Shown in pieces: positions 620-49,739 of a stretch of DNA of 64,000 nucleotides. The translations under genes and the position numbers were made by a program. This DNA is from Octopus vulgaris. Lineage: Eukaryota. The stretch's first letter is position 1, and each line of letters begins with the position of its first letter. Location of the stretch: contig OX597817.1 in the NCBI GenBank assembly GCA_951406725.2, positions 20,956,001 to 21,020,000 of the forward strand, written 5' to 3'. The notes below the pieces were generated by a model. It worked only from the letters and a program-made list of their open reading frames with translations, made no database searches and was not told the origin of the DNA.

Positions 620-643
620 CTTCTTCTTCTTCTTCTTCTTCTT

Positions 644-710
<67 letters not shown>

Positions 711-5829: not shown

Positions 5830-7382
<1,553 letters not shown>

Positions 7383-8364: not shown

Positions 8365-8464
8365 ATCCAAACAAGAAAACACAGAACAAAAGAGAAAAAA
8401 CACAGCAACGCAGGACGTGGAACAATTAAAGTATTATTGACGCTCAGGAAAGAAGGGAAGGAGG

Positions 8465-8499
8465 GTTTAACGTTTCGAGCGGAGCTCTTCATCGGAAAC
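8465..8499 (-). ncRNA. Minimal type-I hammerhead ribozyme, family A (core variant CCGAUGA)
   Basis: GUUU-CCGAUGA-A-GAGC UCC GCUC-GAA-ACGU-U|AAAC: stem I GUUU/AAAC, stem II GAGC/GCUC, palindromic ACGU stem III. Confidence 0.7.
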
Positions 8500-11164: not shown

Positions 11165-11580
11165 TTAAAAGATGCGGGGGGAGAAGTGAAGCGCAGTCAC
11201 TAAGAGGAGTCCGTGTGGGGTTAGAGTCCGTAGAAGGAATATGAACCGTTGCTCCAAGTGAAGCCTAGATTGGGGAGAGCCGTTGTGTGGGGCAAGACCA
11301 AACACCGAGATGTCATCGGGGGAATGGCTGGCTGAGCGGAAGTGCCGTGCGACGGGAGAATTGGAAAATAGACGAACATCCCACAGATGCTCGGTGAATC
11401 GGTCTGACAACCGGCGTCCCGTCTGTCCTATATACAGCATCCTGCAGCGGTTGCATTTAATGCAGTATATGAGTCCAGACGAGGTGCACGTAAAGGAATA
11501 CCCGATACGTACAGTTCGGCGGTTGGAACCGGTGACAGCAGTGGTGTTGGTGATGAAGGGGCAGGTGTTGCAGCGGGATC
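11165..11580 (-). pseudogene. Penelope GIY-YIG endonuclease domain
   Basis: RCNTCPFI..SFTCTSSGLIYCIKCNRCRMLYIGQTGRRLSDRFTEH..VARHF..H...R..LEQRFIF.L.TL.P.GL. Confidence 0.9.
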
Positions 11581-12965
11581 TGGATCATGGGAAGGATCTG
11601 AGTGGGGCCGAGGGGGAAGAAGGGAGGGTGCTACGGACCAGGAGGTCGCGTAGATTCTGGGCTCGTTTGAAGGAGGACAGGGGTGGGTTGGGGAAAATGG
11701 GGTGGGTCGTGGAATCGAGCTGGAGACGACGGAAGGCACGAAGTAGAGTAGAGGAGTGGAAAAGGAGGGGAAAGTGGGTGCGGTTGGGGGGGGGTGATTG
11801 GAAGGAGAAAGGGCGGTGGTGCGGTCGATACGACGAGCGCGGGCGAAGGCGTTCAAGACCAGGGTAGGTGGGTATCCTCGAAGCCTGAACAGGCGGGCCA
11901 GGTATTGAGACTGGGTCTCGAAATCCTGGTAGGGGCTGCACAAGCGTCGGAGGCGGAGGAACTGGGTGTAGGGGATAGCCCGTTTGGTGTGGAAGGGATG
12001 GGAGGAGGAGAAGTTGAGATAGAGGTGGGAATCCGTGGGTTTGAAGAAGGCGGAGGTGGTGAGAGAGTGGGAGGGGTGGTCGATGCTGAGTAAGATATCT
12101 AGGAAGTTAACGGAAGTATTGGATATGGTGGAAGTGAATTGTAGAGAGGGGTGGAAGTTAGAGAGGACAGAGATGAAGTGGCAGAGTTGTTCGCGGGAAA
12201 GGGAGGTGGCGCCTATACATTCGTCTATGTAACGACCGTATAGTTCTGGGGTCGGCCCGGAGAATTGGGAGAATACTTGGGCCTCAATGTAGCCAACAAA
12301 GAGATTGGCGAAATTGGGACCCATTCTCGTTCCCATCGCGACCCCGGACTGCTGTTGGTACGTTTCCCCGGCGAACGTGAAACAGTTGAGGGTTAGGACG
12401 AGCTCTGCCAGGCGGAGGAGGGTGGGGGTTCTAGGGGTGGGGTCGGGGCGACGGTCGAGGAAGTGTTGGAGAGCTAGGAGACCGTCGTTGTGGGGAATCA
12501 CCGTATACAGTGATTTGATGCCAAGGGTGAAGAGGAGGTGTGAGGGGCTGGAAAGGAAGGAAAAGGAATTGAAGAGACGGAGGGCGTGGTTGGTATCATG
12601 TATGTGGGAAGGGAGGGATTTGACTAAAGGGGACAGGATGCGGTCGAGGTATATGGGAAATGTGTTCAGTAGGGCAATTACAGGCGGAAACAATGGGGCG
12701 GCCAGGGGTATTGGGCTTATGAATTTTGGGAAGGAAATAGATGGTGGAGGTGCGGGGTGTGCGGGCGATGAGGTTGGTGGCGGTGGGGGGGAGAGCAGAA
12801 GAAGAGATGAGATCACGGATAGTGGAGGCCACTCGCTGTTTGTAGGAAGAGGTGGGATCAGAGGGGAGGAGGCGATAGGAGAGGGGATTTTGAAGCTGGC
12901 TGAGCGCTTCCTCCCTGTAGAGATCCGCGCGCCATACCACCACTGCTCCGCCTTTGTCCGCCGGT
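11428..12965 (-). pseudogene. Penelope reverse transcriptase (frameshifted; catalytic motifs mutated)
   Basis: ORFs 12596-13027 and 11428-12816 join; LFTLG (expected D) and YIDE (expected YIDD). Confidence 0.9.
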
Positions 12966-12980
12966 TGTTCCATATTCAAC

Positions 12981-13021
<41 letters not shown>

Positions 13022-13169
13022 GTTCACCGCCTTTTGCGAATAGCACCTGCAAAAAACTTCCTCACTTCACTGTGAGTTAAGACCCTGAGAGTCACAGGCA
13101 AGTGAGACAAGTTAACTACGATCCCATTAAGGAGTGAGGAATACTGTTATGTCCACATTTTATAGCTTA

Positions 13170-13547
13170 CTAGCAGTATCGCCCGGCGTTGCTCAGGTTT
13201 GTAAGGGAAATAACTATAAAGCATTTTTAGAGAGTTATAGCCAAAAAATAGCAAAAAAAAGGGAAAAAAATGATGGTAAATTTTTTTTTTAGTTAAAAAA
13301 GGGTGGAGTTGCGTCCCCTAGACAGTTTGTGTTTCTGATTCTGGACCCCATTTCGAATTTATCGATTTTTTTCAGAACTGGGGGAACTTTTCAAAATTTT
13401 CACTTCGTTAGTTATGAATTATGACATTGGGCTATGTGTGTGTCAAGTTTCATCAGAATCGGTTGAAAGCTGTGGTCAGGGTGAGGGTACAAGCAAACAG
13501 ACACACAGAAACACGCACAGACAAACTGCCGTTTATATATAGAGAGA
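13170..13547 (-). mobile_element. Non-autonomous Helitron (~380 bp)
   Basis: 5' A|TCTCTCTATATATAAAC, internal (GTCT/GTGT) repeat and CCGATTCTGATGAAACTT, 3' hairpin CCTGAGCAACGCCGGG then CTAG|T; A/T target with no TSD. Confidence 0.85.
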
Positions 13548-15158: not shown

Positions 15159-15223
<65 letters not shown>

Positions 15224-15226
<3 letters not shown>

Positions 15227-15742
15227 AAATCTCTGAGTGAGTTATAAACAGTAGTTGCACGACATTGTGAAGTATACTTGCCACTTAAGTGTGTCAATAG
15301 CCAGCTCGAGGTGATATCTTCCTGGGGTTACAAGCTACAGTAGAATCAACCCTTAAGGGTTAGCCACATTTAAGCGGCAATTATACGTCACCATGTCGTG
15401 CAGCTGCTATTTATACCTCGCTCAGATATTTATTATTGTTTGCTTCCACTTTTTCGCCACTGGAAAAATAAGACATTTATATTTGCATTAAGAACACAAC
15501 TTCACATCGCAACCATTGGTTGTCACTCGCTGATGACGGATCAATTATCTAGAAACCCGGGTCTATGTGTTTCTCGTCAGCCTGGAGATGGGAAGGATGA
15601 CTTCCCTTTGCAAATACTGATAGGCCACAGAAAGTGTGTCATTAGCCAGCTGGACGAGATATTTTCCTGGGTCTACAAGCTACAGTAGCATCAACCCTTA
15701 AGGGTTAGCCATATTTATGTGGCAATTATACTTCACCATATC
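15224..15742 (+). mobile_element. Hammerhead-containing non-coding element, family B (345-bp unit, 111-bp terminal direct repeat, 5' inverted piece), in (TA)n
   Basis: 15287-15397 repeats at 15632-15742; 15224-15288 is an inverted copy of ~15370-15432; hammerhead inside. Confidence 0.8.
15524..15569 (+). ncRNA. Type-I hammerhead ribozyme, family B
   Basis: CUGAUGA-C-GGAU CAAUU AUCU-A-GAA-ACCCGGGU-C|; palindromic stem III; stem I degraded here but pairs in the 48762 copy. Confidence 0.72.
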
Positions 15743-21189: not shown

Positions 21190-22551
21190 TATGTATGTAT
21201 GTAACTATCTATCTTCAGACACTGCAGTAAACAAAAAACTACCAAATTATACTGTTATATATGCGTTTTAAAAGAACAAGTTGTCAACTACAGGATTTAC
21301 TGGAACAACTTAGCCAAGAGTAAACCTCACACCGACGGTAGTGGCAAGGGCAGTTCTTGTAATATGAAAAAATGGCTCGTCTGGGAAATTTCCTTGGACT
21401 CCGCTACCGGTCTAAATTCAAGAACTGAACTTTTTGGTTCATATCCTTATGTAACAAAATACCTGTTATATATTTTGTGTCCCCAAGATCACGGCTAGAA
21501 TCCATTTTTTTACTGTTTCTGCACAATCTATTTCCCTGTTTTAACTTCCATTAATTTTTTATTTTTTATATATGTATAGTTTTTCGTTTTTTCCTTTCTC
21601 CTTTTTAATTTTGTGAATGTGTACGTATGTGTGTATATGTATGTATATACTTTACATGCATATGTGTGTGTGCGTGTATATATTTGTGTATCTCTACATG
21701 TATGTATATGCGTGTAAGACAAACATTGCACACTCGGAAAACATGCTCAGTACATGCACACGCATGTGCACACACACACACACACATACGCACACACACG
21801 CATACACACTGGAACGCATATACATAAGCAAACACTCGCAAATTTACACACATACATAGAGAACATTTACATTCACAGAAATTACCCAACCACATTACAC
21901 GCACACTAGACCACACAAGCGCACGGGTTGCATGCACTTCTACTCTGTTGTTCTCACCCATTCCAGACATGAGCTAAACCCATTAATATTTATAGGATGA
22001 CAAGCATATCCCAGCAGATCTAAGATCAAGATCAGAAGCAAAATACCCAATGCTCAAGGAAGTCACGGATGGTTAATATACACACACTGATAAAATACAA
22101 ATATGCATGCTGTCAAGTCAGCGAGTTTACACTTAAAACTACAAAAAAATAACCACAATAAAACTCTGCCTTTATTCTCACACACCCATTCTCTTCTAAA
22201 CAACTACACATTTAAACAGACATATACGGACATACATACACTCCGTCATAAGACTAATCCTCAGATAGAAGCAATGTAGAACTTGAATAGAGAAGTTATG
22301 TCAATGATAAGTTTGCGAATAGCAACGAAAAGACATTGACAAACAAACAACCAATTGATAGTGATTCGACGCGTTAAAGCAATAATCTATTACTTTTCCT
22401 GGTTATATATATTAACCCATTGACTAAAAATAAAGAAGTGATATTGAACCAATGGGTGTATTTTTGTTATTAGCTGAATGACCGTCTCAAGGGACAACAA
22501 ATTTTTTTGACAACTCATATATTCGAACAAATACATATATACATATATAAA

Positions 22552-22756
22552 GTTAATCCAAAACAAGAAAACACAAAAAAAACACAGCAACGCGAGGACG
22601 TGGAATAAATAAAGTATTATTGGACGCTCAGGAAAGAAGGGAAGAAGGAGGGTGTAACGTTTCGAGCGGAGCTCTTCGTCGGAAACATAGGAGAAGGAAA
22701 GATCCCGAGAAGGGAAGACAGAAGAAAAAAAAAGCTGGCGGTACTCACAGGTCACA
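22552..22756 (-). mobile_element. Family A Penelope tail (solo) with hammerhead at 22652-22686
   Basis: Highly similar to 8361-8540; core CCGACGA-A-GAGC UCC GCUC-GAAACGUU. Confidence 0.85.
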
Positions 22757-31265: not shown

Positions 31266-31294
31266 CTTTCATTATTATTATTATTATTATTATT

Positions 31295-31850
31295 GAGTGA
31301 GAGAGCAGTTCATGCCATCAAAGTGACACTGGGGTAAAATATACGAAGCCCAATATACCCATCATGACTACCTGTCTGATAAGGGTACACCAGGCACATG
31401 CATCACAACCATATGTGCGCGACATGGTGATCTCATATCAAGATAAACAGCACATGACCTTGCAGGTGGAGCCCAGTTAGAATTTTCTTCAGGTTGAGTA
31501 GCCCATCCCGCTCAAAGGGTCCCTGAATAAGGGTTGTTTAAGGATGTTGAAAGAACCACCCATGTTTCCAGAGGTGAATTATTCAAACCCCAAAGAATCC
31601 CTCTCAACACATGGCTATGATGCTCCCCCACTACTTCTGCTCGTGATCAGAGATGCACATATCGTCAGCCACTAAGGGACATGCTCAACTGGTTAAGGTC
31701 AAACAACTGACAAGCAAATCTGTGGTATTGAGCAGAATATTTGCTGTAGCCCATCTTTTATACCAAGACAAAACAATGTACATGATAACACCTCCAATCA
31801 GTTATGATCAGAAGCCATGAGAGCCACTGACTGGTACTGCATCAGGGCAT
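31295..31850 (-). mobile_element. 555-bp non-coding retroposon with (TAA)n tail, inserted in (TTA)n
   Basis: Near-identical to 33421-33903. All three copies share the left end and differ at the right, consistent with 5' truncation on the minus strand. Confidence 0.85.
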
Positions 31851-33341: not shown

Positions 33342-33407
<66 letters not shown>

Positions 33408-33420
33408 CATTATTATCATT

Positions 33421-33903
33421 GAGTGAGAGAGCAGTTCATGCCATCAAAGTGACACCGGGGTAAAATATACGAAGCCCAATATACCCATCATGACTACCCG
33501 TCTGATAAAGGTACACCAGGCACATGCATCACAACCATATGTGCACGACATGGTGATCTCATATCAAGATAAACAGCACATGACCTTGCAGGTGGGGCCC
33601 AGTTAGAATTTTCTTCAGGTTGAGTAGCCCATCCCGCTCAAACGGTCCCTGAATAAGGGTTGCTTAAGGATGTTGAAAGAACCACCCATGTTTCCAGAGG
33701 TGAACTATTCAAACCCCAAAGAATCCCTCTCAACACATGGCTATGATGCTCCCCCACTACTTCTGCTCGTGATCAGAGATGCACATATCGTCAGCCACTA
33801 AGGGACATGCTCAACTGGTTAAGGTCAAACAACTGACAAGCAAATCTGTGGTATTGAGTAGAATATTTGCTGTAGCCCATCTTTTATACCAAGACAAAAC
33901 AAT
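33421..33903 (-). mobile_element. Second, 5'-truncated copy of the 555-bp (TAA)n-tailed retroposon
   Basis: Near-identical to 31295-31777; (TTA)n on both sides. Confidence 0.88.
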
Positions 33904-48549: not shown

Positions 48550-48974
48550 ATAACATATTCTCCTGGGGCTACTTAGCTGCAAGCTACAGTAGCATCCACC
48601 CGTAGTGGTTAGCCACATTGTGGTGCAGCTACTGTTTATACCGCGTTCAGATATCTATTATTGCTTGTTTACACTTTTTCGAGATCAGTGAATTTTCGTC
48701 ACTCGAAAAAGGATAGATGTATTTACATTGGGACCTCTTCGAATCGAAGACAGGTGATTGTCGTGTGCTGACGTCGGGCAAATACTCAGAAACCCGGGTC
48801 CGTACGTATCACGTAGGATCGACAATGGGAAGGATGGCCTCCCTTTTCAAATACTGACTGGGCACAAAAAGTGTGGCAATAGCCAGCTGGAGAAGATGTT
48901 TCCTGGGGCTACAAGCTACAATAGCATGCACCCTATGTGGTTAACCACATTTAAGTGGCAAGTATACTTCACAT

Positions 48975-48978
<4 letters not shown>
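48550..48978 (+). mobile_element. Second family B hammerhead element (~340-bp period, terminal direct repeat), ending in (TA)n
   Basis: tcctggggctac at 48561 and 48901. Hammerhead 48762-48806: CGUGUG-CUGACGU-C-GGG..CUC-A-GAA-ACCCGGGU-C|CGUACG. Confidence 0.8.
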
Positions 48979-49312: not shown

Positions 49313-49739
49313 ATCGATATAACGCTCATCTTTTAGATACGGGAAACACACTATATCAACACACGCCAGTCACTTACATCATCTTAAAAATAAAAATGCG
49401 TGCTGCTTTTTGCAGTTCATGAATTGATGTGCTTTCATAATGGTGTTCATTTTTGAATCTCTAGTGAACATAGGGAGATTTTGCAAAATAGTGTTGTATG
49501 CTTCATTTTTTCTAGGATTGAATGTTGATATATACAGTAGTGTTTTGAGATGTGGGTTGATGTTACATTTTCTTGCCCTTAATGTTTCAATATCTAATTT
49601 ATTAGTACGCTTAATTCCATCGTATTTCAGTTAGTGTTGTTTTGAGGTATTGAAGACGTAGGTCCCGAGTCACTTGCCTTCTACTATAACCTCTAGCTGG
49701 TGCTAGTGATCCGTATTATGCTTCCAAGTTAGTTGATAT

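What the first reader, a model, noticed from the sequence alone, without database searches (positions are those of the whole stretch)
15224..15742. Family B: terminally redundant 345-nt hammerhead monomer (retrozyme-like)
Seen: about 1.3 tandem units (111-bp direct repeat, period 345) with one hammerhead, no ORF and a 65-bp 5' inverted piece. A second copy at 48550-48978 has period ~340 and ends at the same point before (TA)n. Established: retrozymes are copied from multimeric or circular RNAs, and PLE insertions often have inverted 5' segments. Inference: reverse transcription more than once around a ~345-nt circular RNA, or a solo pLTR plus tail.
Basis: partly seen in the sequence, partly recalled or inferred. 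Interest (0 to 1): 0.72.

Follow-up and report, generated by a model that had tools for sequence, protein, structure and literature searches.

The report
Aged Penelope-pasted hammerhead retrozyme copy
This is one decayed copy of an abundant, protein-free repeat of about 357 bases that carries a hammerhead-ribozyme motif; its copies end at two fixed points against TA repeats just as the Penelope-type retrotransposons of the same genome do, so it was likely pasted by their enzymes, likely from a small RNA circle, which makes it a new member of a known kind of element.

Summary
The repeat, the period and the hammerhead motif are real; two details are wrong. The 345-nt period comes from a private ~17-nt deletion (family mode 357). 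The 'inverted 5' piece' is a second, opposite arm with its own 3' end against (TA)31. Of 193 arms in 132 loci, 155 end at one of two sites 42-50 nt apart; in 29 of 33 two-armed insertions with both ends at these sites, one arm uses each. Autonomous Penelope-like elements (PLEs) in this genome show the same footprint. No copy is the pLTR of an ORF. Hammerhead stems are kept by compensatory changes between subfamilies, yet 139 of 193 arms run through the cut site and 5' ends do not pile up there, which fits a circle or uncut RNA as template. The two long arrays found are later DNA-level expansions, so they do not support rolling-circle copying. This copy's stem I is broken; RNA reads are few, with no cut ends. 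One locus joins a family arm head-to-head with an age-matched PLE: a candidate partner, n=1. Known kind (non-LTR retrozyme, non-autonomous PLE). The scan noted this type many times on other DNA of this genome.

The parts
15162..15223 (.). (TA)31 tract, left target flank; the inverted arm's 3' end lies against it
15222..15293 (-). Inverted arm: family positions 78-149, 3' end at the second fixed site (the PLE 'tail' end)
   Evidence: L001 1433-1504, 90% to the family consensus
15287..15293 (.). 7-bp overlap shared by the two arms (junction microhomology)
   Evidence: 24 of 53 two-armed junctions overlap by 2 bp or more
15287..15742 (+). Main arm, 1.31 units, 3' end at the first fixed site (family position 107-110)
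15287..15397 (+). 5' copy of the 111-bp terminal redundancy
15450..15462 (+). Approximate site of the ~17-nt deletion found only in this copy; explains period 345 against 357
15524..15569 (+). Type I hammerhead motif: core 15530-15536 and 15552-15555, palindromic short helix III, predicted cut after 15563; stem I has two mismatches in this copy
15632..15742 (+). 3' copy of the 111-bp terminal redundancy, followed by a short (TA)n
48555..48972 (+). Second window copy, subfamily 2, about 1.2 units, single arm, ends at position 104 before (TA)n; hammerhead core from 48768 with A9 changed to T

Best explanation
The locus is an aged, two-armed insertion of a non-coding ~357-nt hammerhead repeat family (a non-LTR retrozyme) that was likely copied in trans by the RT-endonuclease of a Penelope-like element (PLE), likely using a monomeric RNA circle as template. 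Shown: three subfamilies, dispersed copies of mostly 0.2-2.2 units, two fixed 3' ends 42-50 nt apart next to microsatellites, variable 5' ends, back-to-back arms that use one end each, and hammerhead stems kept by compensatory changes. Inferred: (1) master RNAs were cut by paired hammerheads and ligated to a monomer circle; (2) the PLE enzyme nicked both strands of a TA-rich target and primed cDNA inside the RNA at site 1 on one strand and site 2 on the other; (3) each cDNA ran through the ribozyme junction for a variable length and the two were joined at their far ends, often through a few shared bases; (4) the copy then decayed (deletion, broken stem I) and is likely dead.
For: 3' ends: 91 of 193 arms at family positions 95-112, 64 of 193 at 143-156, with a microsatellite within 22 nt in 59 of 91 and 45 of 64. 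Of 53 two-armed insertions, 33 have both ends at these sites: 29 site 1 + site 2, 4 site 1 + site 1, 0 site 2 + site 2; 48% mixed expected, P = 2.5e-6. An autonomous PLE family here has two ends 42 nt apart and uses one per arm in 6 of 7 two-armed loci; another has a 49-nt tail. Two internal RT start sites, AT-rich cutting and extension on both strands are shown in vitro for a PLE (PMC11167929); inverted 5' copies and a one-sided tail are the typical PLE layout (PMC8557442; PMC3846280). Hammerhead: 92.6% of 852 cells paired, 45 cells changed on both sides against 18.6 in shuffles (0/500), one stem I pair A-U in 39 and G-C in 26 rows. For a circle: 139 of 193 arms cross the cut site; only 5 of 193 5' ends lie at it, 7.0 expected; direct repeats share 30 rare variants against 14 for the best other locus and 2.8 for the average one, and L230 shares 10 between passes and 9 between arms.
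Against: No circle and no cleavage were observed. RNA reads are rare (236, 287 and 133 of about 12 million), equal on both strands, with no ends piled at the cut site, and reads carry the core uncut. In the PLE studied in vitro, ribozyme mutants insert as well and uncut RNA is the main substrate, so uncut RNA explains read-through too. Only 12 of 65 direct pairs share any rare variant, mostly in one small subfamily where thin sampling can mimic privacy. The two long arrays are secondary. The core has an extra C after A9 and an extra A before G12 (C/A in 106 of 137 motifs), which departs from the canonical form, and no Rfam model matches. Covariation counts reflect few events between related subfamilies. 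No PLE shares sequence with the unit; the partner rests on one locus. In this copy the inverted arm lacks two variants that the direct repeats share, so its arms may come from two RNA molecules.
Confidence: 0.62

Rival explanations
1. Same PLE-driven insertion, but the template is uncut linear RNA read through from partial-tandem genomic copies; tandem units are rebuilt by template jumps and no circle is needed.
For: Uncut RNA is the dominant substrate in vitro and no reads end at the cut site in the PLE of PMC11167929. Primary arms reach at most 2.23 units. 53 of 65 direct pairs share no rare variant. RNA reads cross the core uncut.
Against: Does not explain why the hammerhead stems are kept by compensatory changes in a non-coding RNA, nor insertions such as L230 whose passes and arms share 9-10 rare variants.
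Confidence: 0.28
2. The unit is the solo pLTR plus tail of an autonomous PLE not yet found.
For: Solo pLTRs with a hammerhead are common for other PLE families here (window 22546-22682 and 8419-8495); PLE families were only sampled, not listed in full.
Against: The unit closes on itself head-to-tail; 6 of 132 loci have PLE ORF pieces within the flanks and none is in pLTR position; 0 of 140 PLE-search loci have a related pLTR.
Confidence: 0.05
3. A satellite or SINE-like repeat spread by DNA recombination or by a LINE, with a chance hammerhead-like word.
For: Two arrays (9 and 5 units) did grow at DNA level. Loose hammerhead-like words occur 22 times in the window.
Against: Copies are dispersed on most large contigs, have two fixed internal 3' ends and two-armed layouts, no tRNA head or A-tail was seen in the alignment, and all three helices are kept.
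Confidence: 0.05

Closest known systems
Metazoan non-LTR retrozymes (Cervera and de la Pena 2020, PMC7229834; mussel 350-390 bp, axolotl 330/350 nt)
   Same: Non-coding unit of similar size, one type I hammerhead per unit, low GC, head-to-tail repeats, PLEs proposed as movers.
   Different: Here most copies are 0.2-2 units and dispersed; long arrays are secondary; no abundant RNA seen; cleavage and circles untested; core has extra C and A flanking stem II.
Non-LTR retrozymes as non-autonomous PLE derivatives (Li, Clavereau, Pollet, bioRxiv 10.64898/2026.07.22.740005)
   Same: Co-occurs with many PLE families; monomers dominate, as in some of their families.
   Different: They link retrozymes to PLEs by pLTR homology and co-occurrence; this family has no detectable pLTR homology and is linked by the insertion footprint. 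Molluscs are not named among their 35 species in the parts read.
EN+ Penelope-like elements (Craig 2021 PMC8557442; Arkhipova 2013 PMC3846280; Frangieh 2024 PMC11167929)
   Same: Partial tandem, inverted 5'-truncated copy, optional tail at one end, (TA)n bias, hammerhead upstream of two internal RT start sites.
   Different: No ORF; tail 42-50 nt against 30-40 nt in those papers; helix sizes (6/4/short palindrome) are those of 'canonical' metazoan hammerheads, not of the PLE minimal form (PMC4209133).
Non-autonomous Chlamys PLEs such as MRC1 (PMC8557442)
   Same: Non-coding, form pLTRs and head-to-tail insertions.
   Different: Those resemble their autonomous partner at the 3' end; this family does not resemble any PLE sampled.

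Membership tests
Non-LTR retrozyme | Non-coding unit of roughly 150-400 nt with one type I hammerhead | tested here: met
   357-nt unit, no ORF, 95 of 137 motifs with all 11 core letters intact, three helices supported
Non-LTR retrozyme | Head-to-tail copies with at least two consecutive hammerheads | tested here: met
   Several primary arms of 1.6-2.2 units and arrays of 5 and 9 units; the focal copy itself has only one
Non-LTR retrozyme | Self-cleavage of the RNA | not testable with these tools
   Needs an in vitro assay; no read ends at the cut site in three RNA runs
Non-LTR retrozyme | Expression as abundant monomeric circles | tested here: inconclusive
   12-24 reads per million, both strands; library selection unknown, and the circle junction has the same letters as the genomic tandem
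PLE-mobilised insertion | Two fixed 3' ends defining a tail, variable 5' truncation | tested here: met
   155 of 193 arms at two sites; 5' ends spread over the unit
PLE-mobilised insertion | Inverted 5'-truncated copy, tail at one end only | tested here: met
   29 of 33
PLE-mobilised insertion | Bias for AT-rich or microsatellite targets | tested here: met
   104 of 155 canonical ends have a microsatellite within 22 nt; no matched genomic background was computed
Autonomous PLE or its solo pLTR | Unit joined to an RT + GIY-YIG ORF as its pLTR | tested here: not met
   0 of 132 family loci, 0 of 140 PLE-search loci
Rfam hammerhead families | Score at the gathering threshold | tested here: not met
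   No match in the window or in six better copies
Plant LTR retrozyme | Type III hammerhead in LTRs around a central region | tested here: not met
   Type I topology, no central region

The most novel reading that the evidence does not exclude
A PLE dimer nicks both strands and primes two cDNAs, one from each internal start site, on small hammerhead-made RNA circles, and the two halves can carry different RNAs. Locus L174, where a family arm ending at site 2 sits head-to-head (47 nt apart) with a 5'-truncated autonomous PLE ending at its site 1, would be a hybrid product that names the partner enzyme of a retrozyme that shares no sequence with it.
Probability: 0.25. Interest if true: 0.62.

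Novelty: new member of a known kind. Interest (0 to 1): 0.3.

Why it matters
As a locus it is ordinary: one dead copy among thousands of fragments. The family adds footprint evidence for a link that the papers read propose from co-occurrence and homology: that PLE enzymes move retrozymes. It also gives two cautions. Tandem arrays are not evidence of rolling-circle copying, since both long arrays here grew later at DNA level. A single copy's period is not the monomer length. If hybrid insertions such as L174 are real and recurrent, they would pair each retrozyme with its enzyme and test the two-strand, two-start model of PLE integration.

Tried and rejected
Rfam: no hammerhead match at any threshold tried. 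Partner by homology: the Neptune-type PLE remnant in the window (11168-13066) and its young family, the family beside L014, the GIY-YIG search set and the family beside L174 have other pLTRs; local alignment scores of the unit against two pLTRs were within shuffles (87/200 and 163/200). Pfam PF26215 is not held. A three-unit pattern search was not possible; a dimer DNA query found the arrays. Multimers as proof of rolling-circle copying: rejected, inner units are 99-100% (C2) and 96-99% (C25) identical while end pieces differ by 5-8% (in C25 only the 3' end piece does). RNA joints 'going back 343' (11, 3 and 8 reads) match the tandem seam of other genomic copies and are not circle evidence. 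No RNA holder was listed by the run search. A second read lay on a better copy was not obtained, so read ends were examined only on the focal copy, whose deletion and divergence leave 15459-15548 uncovered. Pile-ups of 5' ends at positions 200 and 357 are alignment artefacts (internal TA tract, consensus seam). Further hybrids: one real PLE head-to-head contact besides L174 (L059) is a nested insertion in the unit's TA tract; the other tagged rows are abundant short repeats in the query flanks. A sequence look-up in earlier findings gave nothing. Paper searches octopus + hammerhead ribozyme, cephalopod + retrozyme, and octopus/Penelope/non-autonomous/ribozyme listed no description of this family; Repbase, Dfam and supplements were not available or not read, so it may be catalogued there.

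Full report
Observation. The window holds a 111-bp direct repeat (15287-15397 and 15632-15742, 88% identical, period 345), a hammerhead core at 15530-15563 and a related copy at 48555-48972. No ORF of 110 codons or more covers the element. The genome is 2.8 Gb in 227 contigs; earlier scan notes call it an octopus, which I did not test. First-look candidate counts were 3407, 2629 and 5579, so the family probably has thousands of fragments; these counts are not copy numbers.

Sample. I examined 158 fetched loci from five searches. They gave 240 aligned arms, of which 193 were unique and at least 40 nt long, in 132 loci; 47 duplicate or short rows were dropped, and one cut duplicate of the C2 array remained. 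Four sets are biased to long copies or intact hammerheads. The least biased set (a 30-base word near the 3' end, 25 loci) has 41 arms of 0.14-1.56 units, 5 of them over one unit.

The unit. The consensus is 357 nt. Periods in 65 redundant arms peak at 357-358; only the focal copy has the deletion at positions 168-190. There are at least three subfamilies: the focal type (copies 87-94% to consensus), the type of the second window copy (90-99% to its own consensus over the selected region, 89% between consensuses) and a 352-nt type.

The ribozyme. Helix I has 6 pairs, helix II 4, helix III 2 with a palindromic loop, the layout described for canonical metazoan type I hammerheads that work as dimers (PMC4209133). 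On 74 motifs (71 distinct), 92.6% of cells pair; 45 cells change on both sides against 18.6 in shuffles, and slid controls pair at most 63%. The structure was drawn from the consensus and the rows are related, so this reflects a few subfamily events, chiefly one A-U to G-C change in helix I. An extra C follows A9 and an extra A precedes G12 in 106 of 137 motifs. An extra base after position 9 is known in PLE hammerheads; the second extra base is not mentioned in the parts I read. No Rfam model matches. The focal motif has two helix I mismatches and does not fold as a hammerhead: it is likely dead.

The insertion footprint. 91 arms end at positions 95-112 and 64 at 143-156, 173-223 nt downstream of the predicted cut; 38 end elsewhere. 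Of 53 back-to-back pairs, 33 have both ends at these sites, and 29 use one site each (P = 2.5e-6). The focal locus is one of them: the main arm ends at site 1, the inverted arm at site 2 against (TA)31, and the arms overlap by 7 bp. Junctions overlap by 2 bp or more in 24 of 53, are blunt in 9 and have filler in 20. An autonomous PLE family in this genome has two ends 42 nt apart and uses one per arm in 6 of 7 two-armed loci. This is the PLE layout in print: partial tandem, inverted 5'-truncated copy, tail at one end, (TA)n bias, explained in vitro by two internal RT start sites and extension of both strands.

Circle or linear template. 139 of 193 arms cross the cut site (partly by selection) and 5' ends do not gather there (5 seen, 7.0 expected), so cut linear monomers were not the usual template. 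That leaves circles or uncut RNA. For circles: the ribozyme is maintained, and repeated passes share 30 rare variants against 14 (best other locus) and 2.8 (mean other locus); L230 shares 10 between passes and 9 between arms, L029 shares 5, and the focal repeats share one unique and two uncommon variants. Against: 53 of 65 pairs share none, gene conversion or unsampled subfamilies could give the rest, and uncut RNA is the main substrate for the one PLE tested. More-than-unit copying of a circle was already proposed for PLEs and for retrozymes. Arrays of 9 and 5 units exist, but their inner units are 96-100% identical while end pieces differ by 5-8%, the mark of later DNA-level expansion or an assembly artefact. 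I put the circle at about two to one over uncut linear RNA, given PLE mobilisation.

Expression. Three RNA runs gave 236, 287 and 133 family reads of 12.9, 12.0 and 11.5 million, equal on both strands, with no ends gathered at the cut site; 31, 44 and 10 reads carry the core upstream of it uncut. This looks like read-through of old copies. Library selection is unknown and could lose circles; the runs were added by species label only.

Partner. None of 140 loci from PLE searches and fetches has a pLTR like the unit; the only hits were the family copies in L125 and L269 and a 63-nt, 73% piece in another repeat. Six of 132 family loci have PLE ORF pieces nearby, none as a pLTR junction. In L174 a subfamily-2 arm ending at site 2 lies head-to-head, 47 nt apart, with a 5'-truncated PLE ending at its site 1. 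That PLE family is of similar age (89-97% to majority) with a 49-nt tail. It is a single case: 0 of 29 other loci of that PLE show a family arm, and the gap is longer than the 31-nt maximum between family arms. It is a lead only.

Papers seen. bioRxiv 10.64898/2026.07.22.740005: parts 1-3 of 5. PMC11167929 and PMC4209133: parts 1-2 of 4 each. PMC7229834: 12 passages and the Discussion. PMC8557442: 12 passages. PMC3846280: 10 passages. No supplements were read; family lists there could include this element. Six searches were run. The labels 'Neptune-type', 'Helitron-like' and 'SINE' for neighbouring repeats are from recall, supported only by the GIY-YIG hit and the cysteine motif seen in translation.

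Verdict. A real but ordinary, aged member of a known kind: a non-LTR retrozyme moved by PLE machinery (about 0.9), probably through a circle (0.62 overall). The scan has reported the same two-armed type many times elsewhere in this genome, including what is probably this family (e1-9582922, not checked).

Noticed in passing
L269-L298, PLE terminal repeat (e.g. L174 about 640-700, minus strand): The PLE family beside L174 has a hammerhead-like motif whose core reads A at position 3 and U at position 8 (an A3-U8 pair in place of C3-G8), with position 7 variable, a palindromic helix III and a GUA cut triplet; seen in 20 of 30 loci by a simple pattern. The parts of PMC4209133 read mention only U3-A8; no search was run for A3-U8.
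   Followed up: partly
window 11168-13066, minus strand: Broken, 5'-truncated PLE (RT + GIY-YIG) of a young family with about 1008-codon open frames elsewhere in the genome; its pLTR hammerhead has C at position 4. Pieces of that pLTR type lie at window 22546-22682 and 8419-8495.
   Followed up: partly
L155 about 6095-6140; L245-L268: Two more autonomous PLE families carry U3-A8 hammerheads in their pLTRs.
   Followed up: no
L052, L054, L059, L060 (unit positions 200-210): The unit's internal (TA)n tract is itself a target: other repeats, including a PLE piece in L059, have inserted there.
   Followed up: partly
L226 (G000:C2) and L227 (G000:C25): 9- and 5-unit arrays made of nearly identical inner units between diverged end pieces: birth of a small satellite from a roughly two-unit insertion, or an assembly artefact.
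   Followed up: partly
L140:2346-2408 and L163: A 63-nt piece 73% similar to unit positions 45-104 sits inside another repeat that looks Helitron-like by recall; a related repeat end lies in the window near 13100-13500.
   Followed up: no
window 15222-15293 against 15287-15742: The two direct repeats share variants at unit positions 94 and 105 that the inverted arm lacks (it has other bases at both), which hints at two different RNA templates for the two arms; two sites only.
   Followed up: partly
window 31271-31777 and 33397-33903: 507-bp direct repeat at 97.8% identity around a stretch with RT-like coding pieces.
   Followed up: no
window about 49400-49620, minus strand: Short PLE ORF fragment about 430 bp downstream of the second family copy (L166 2204-2422).
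   Followed up: no
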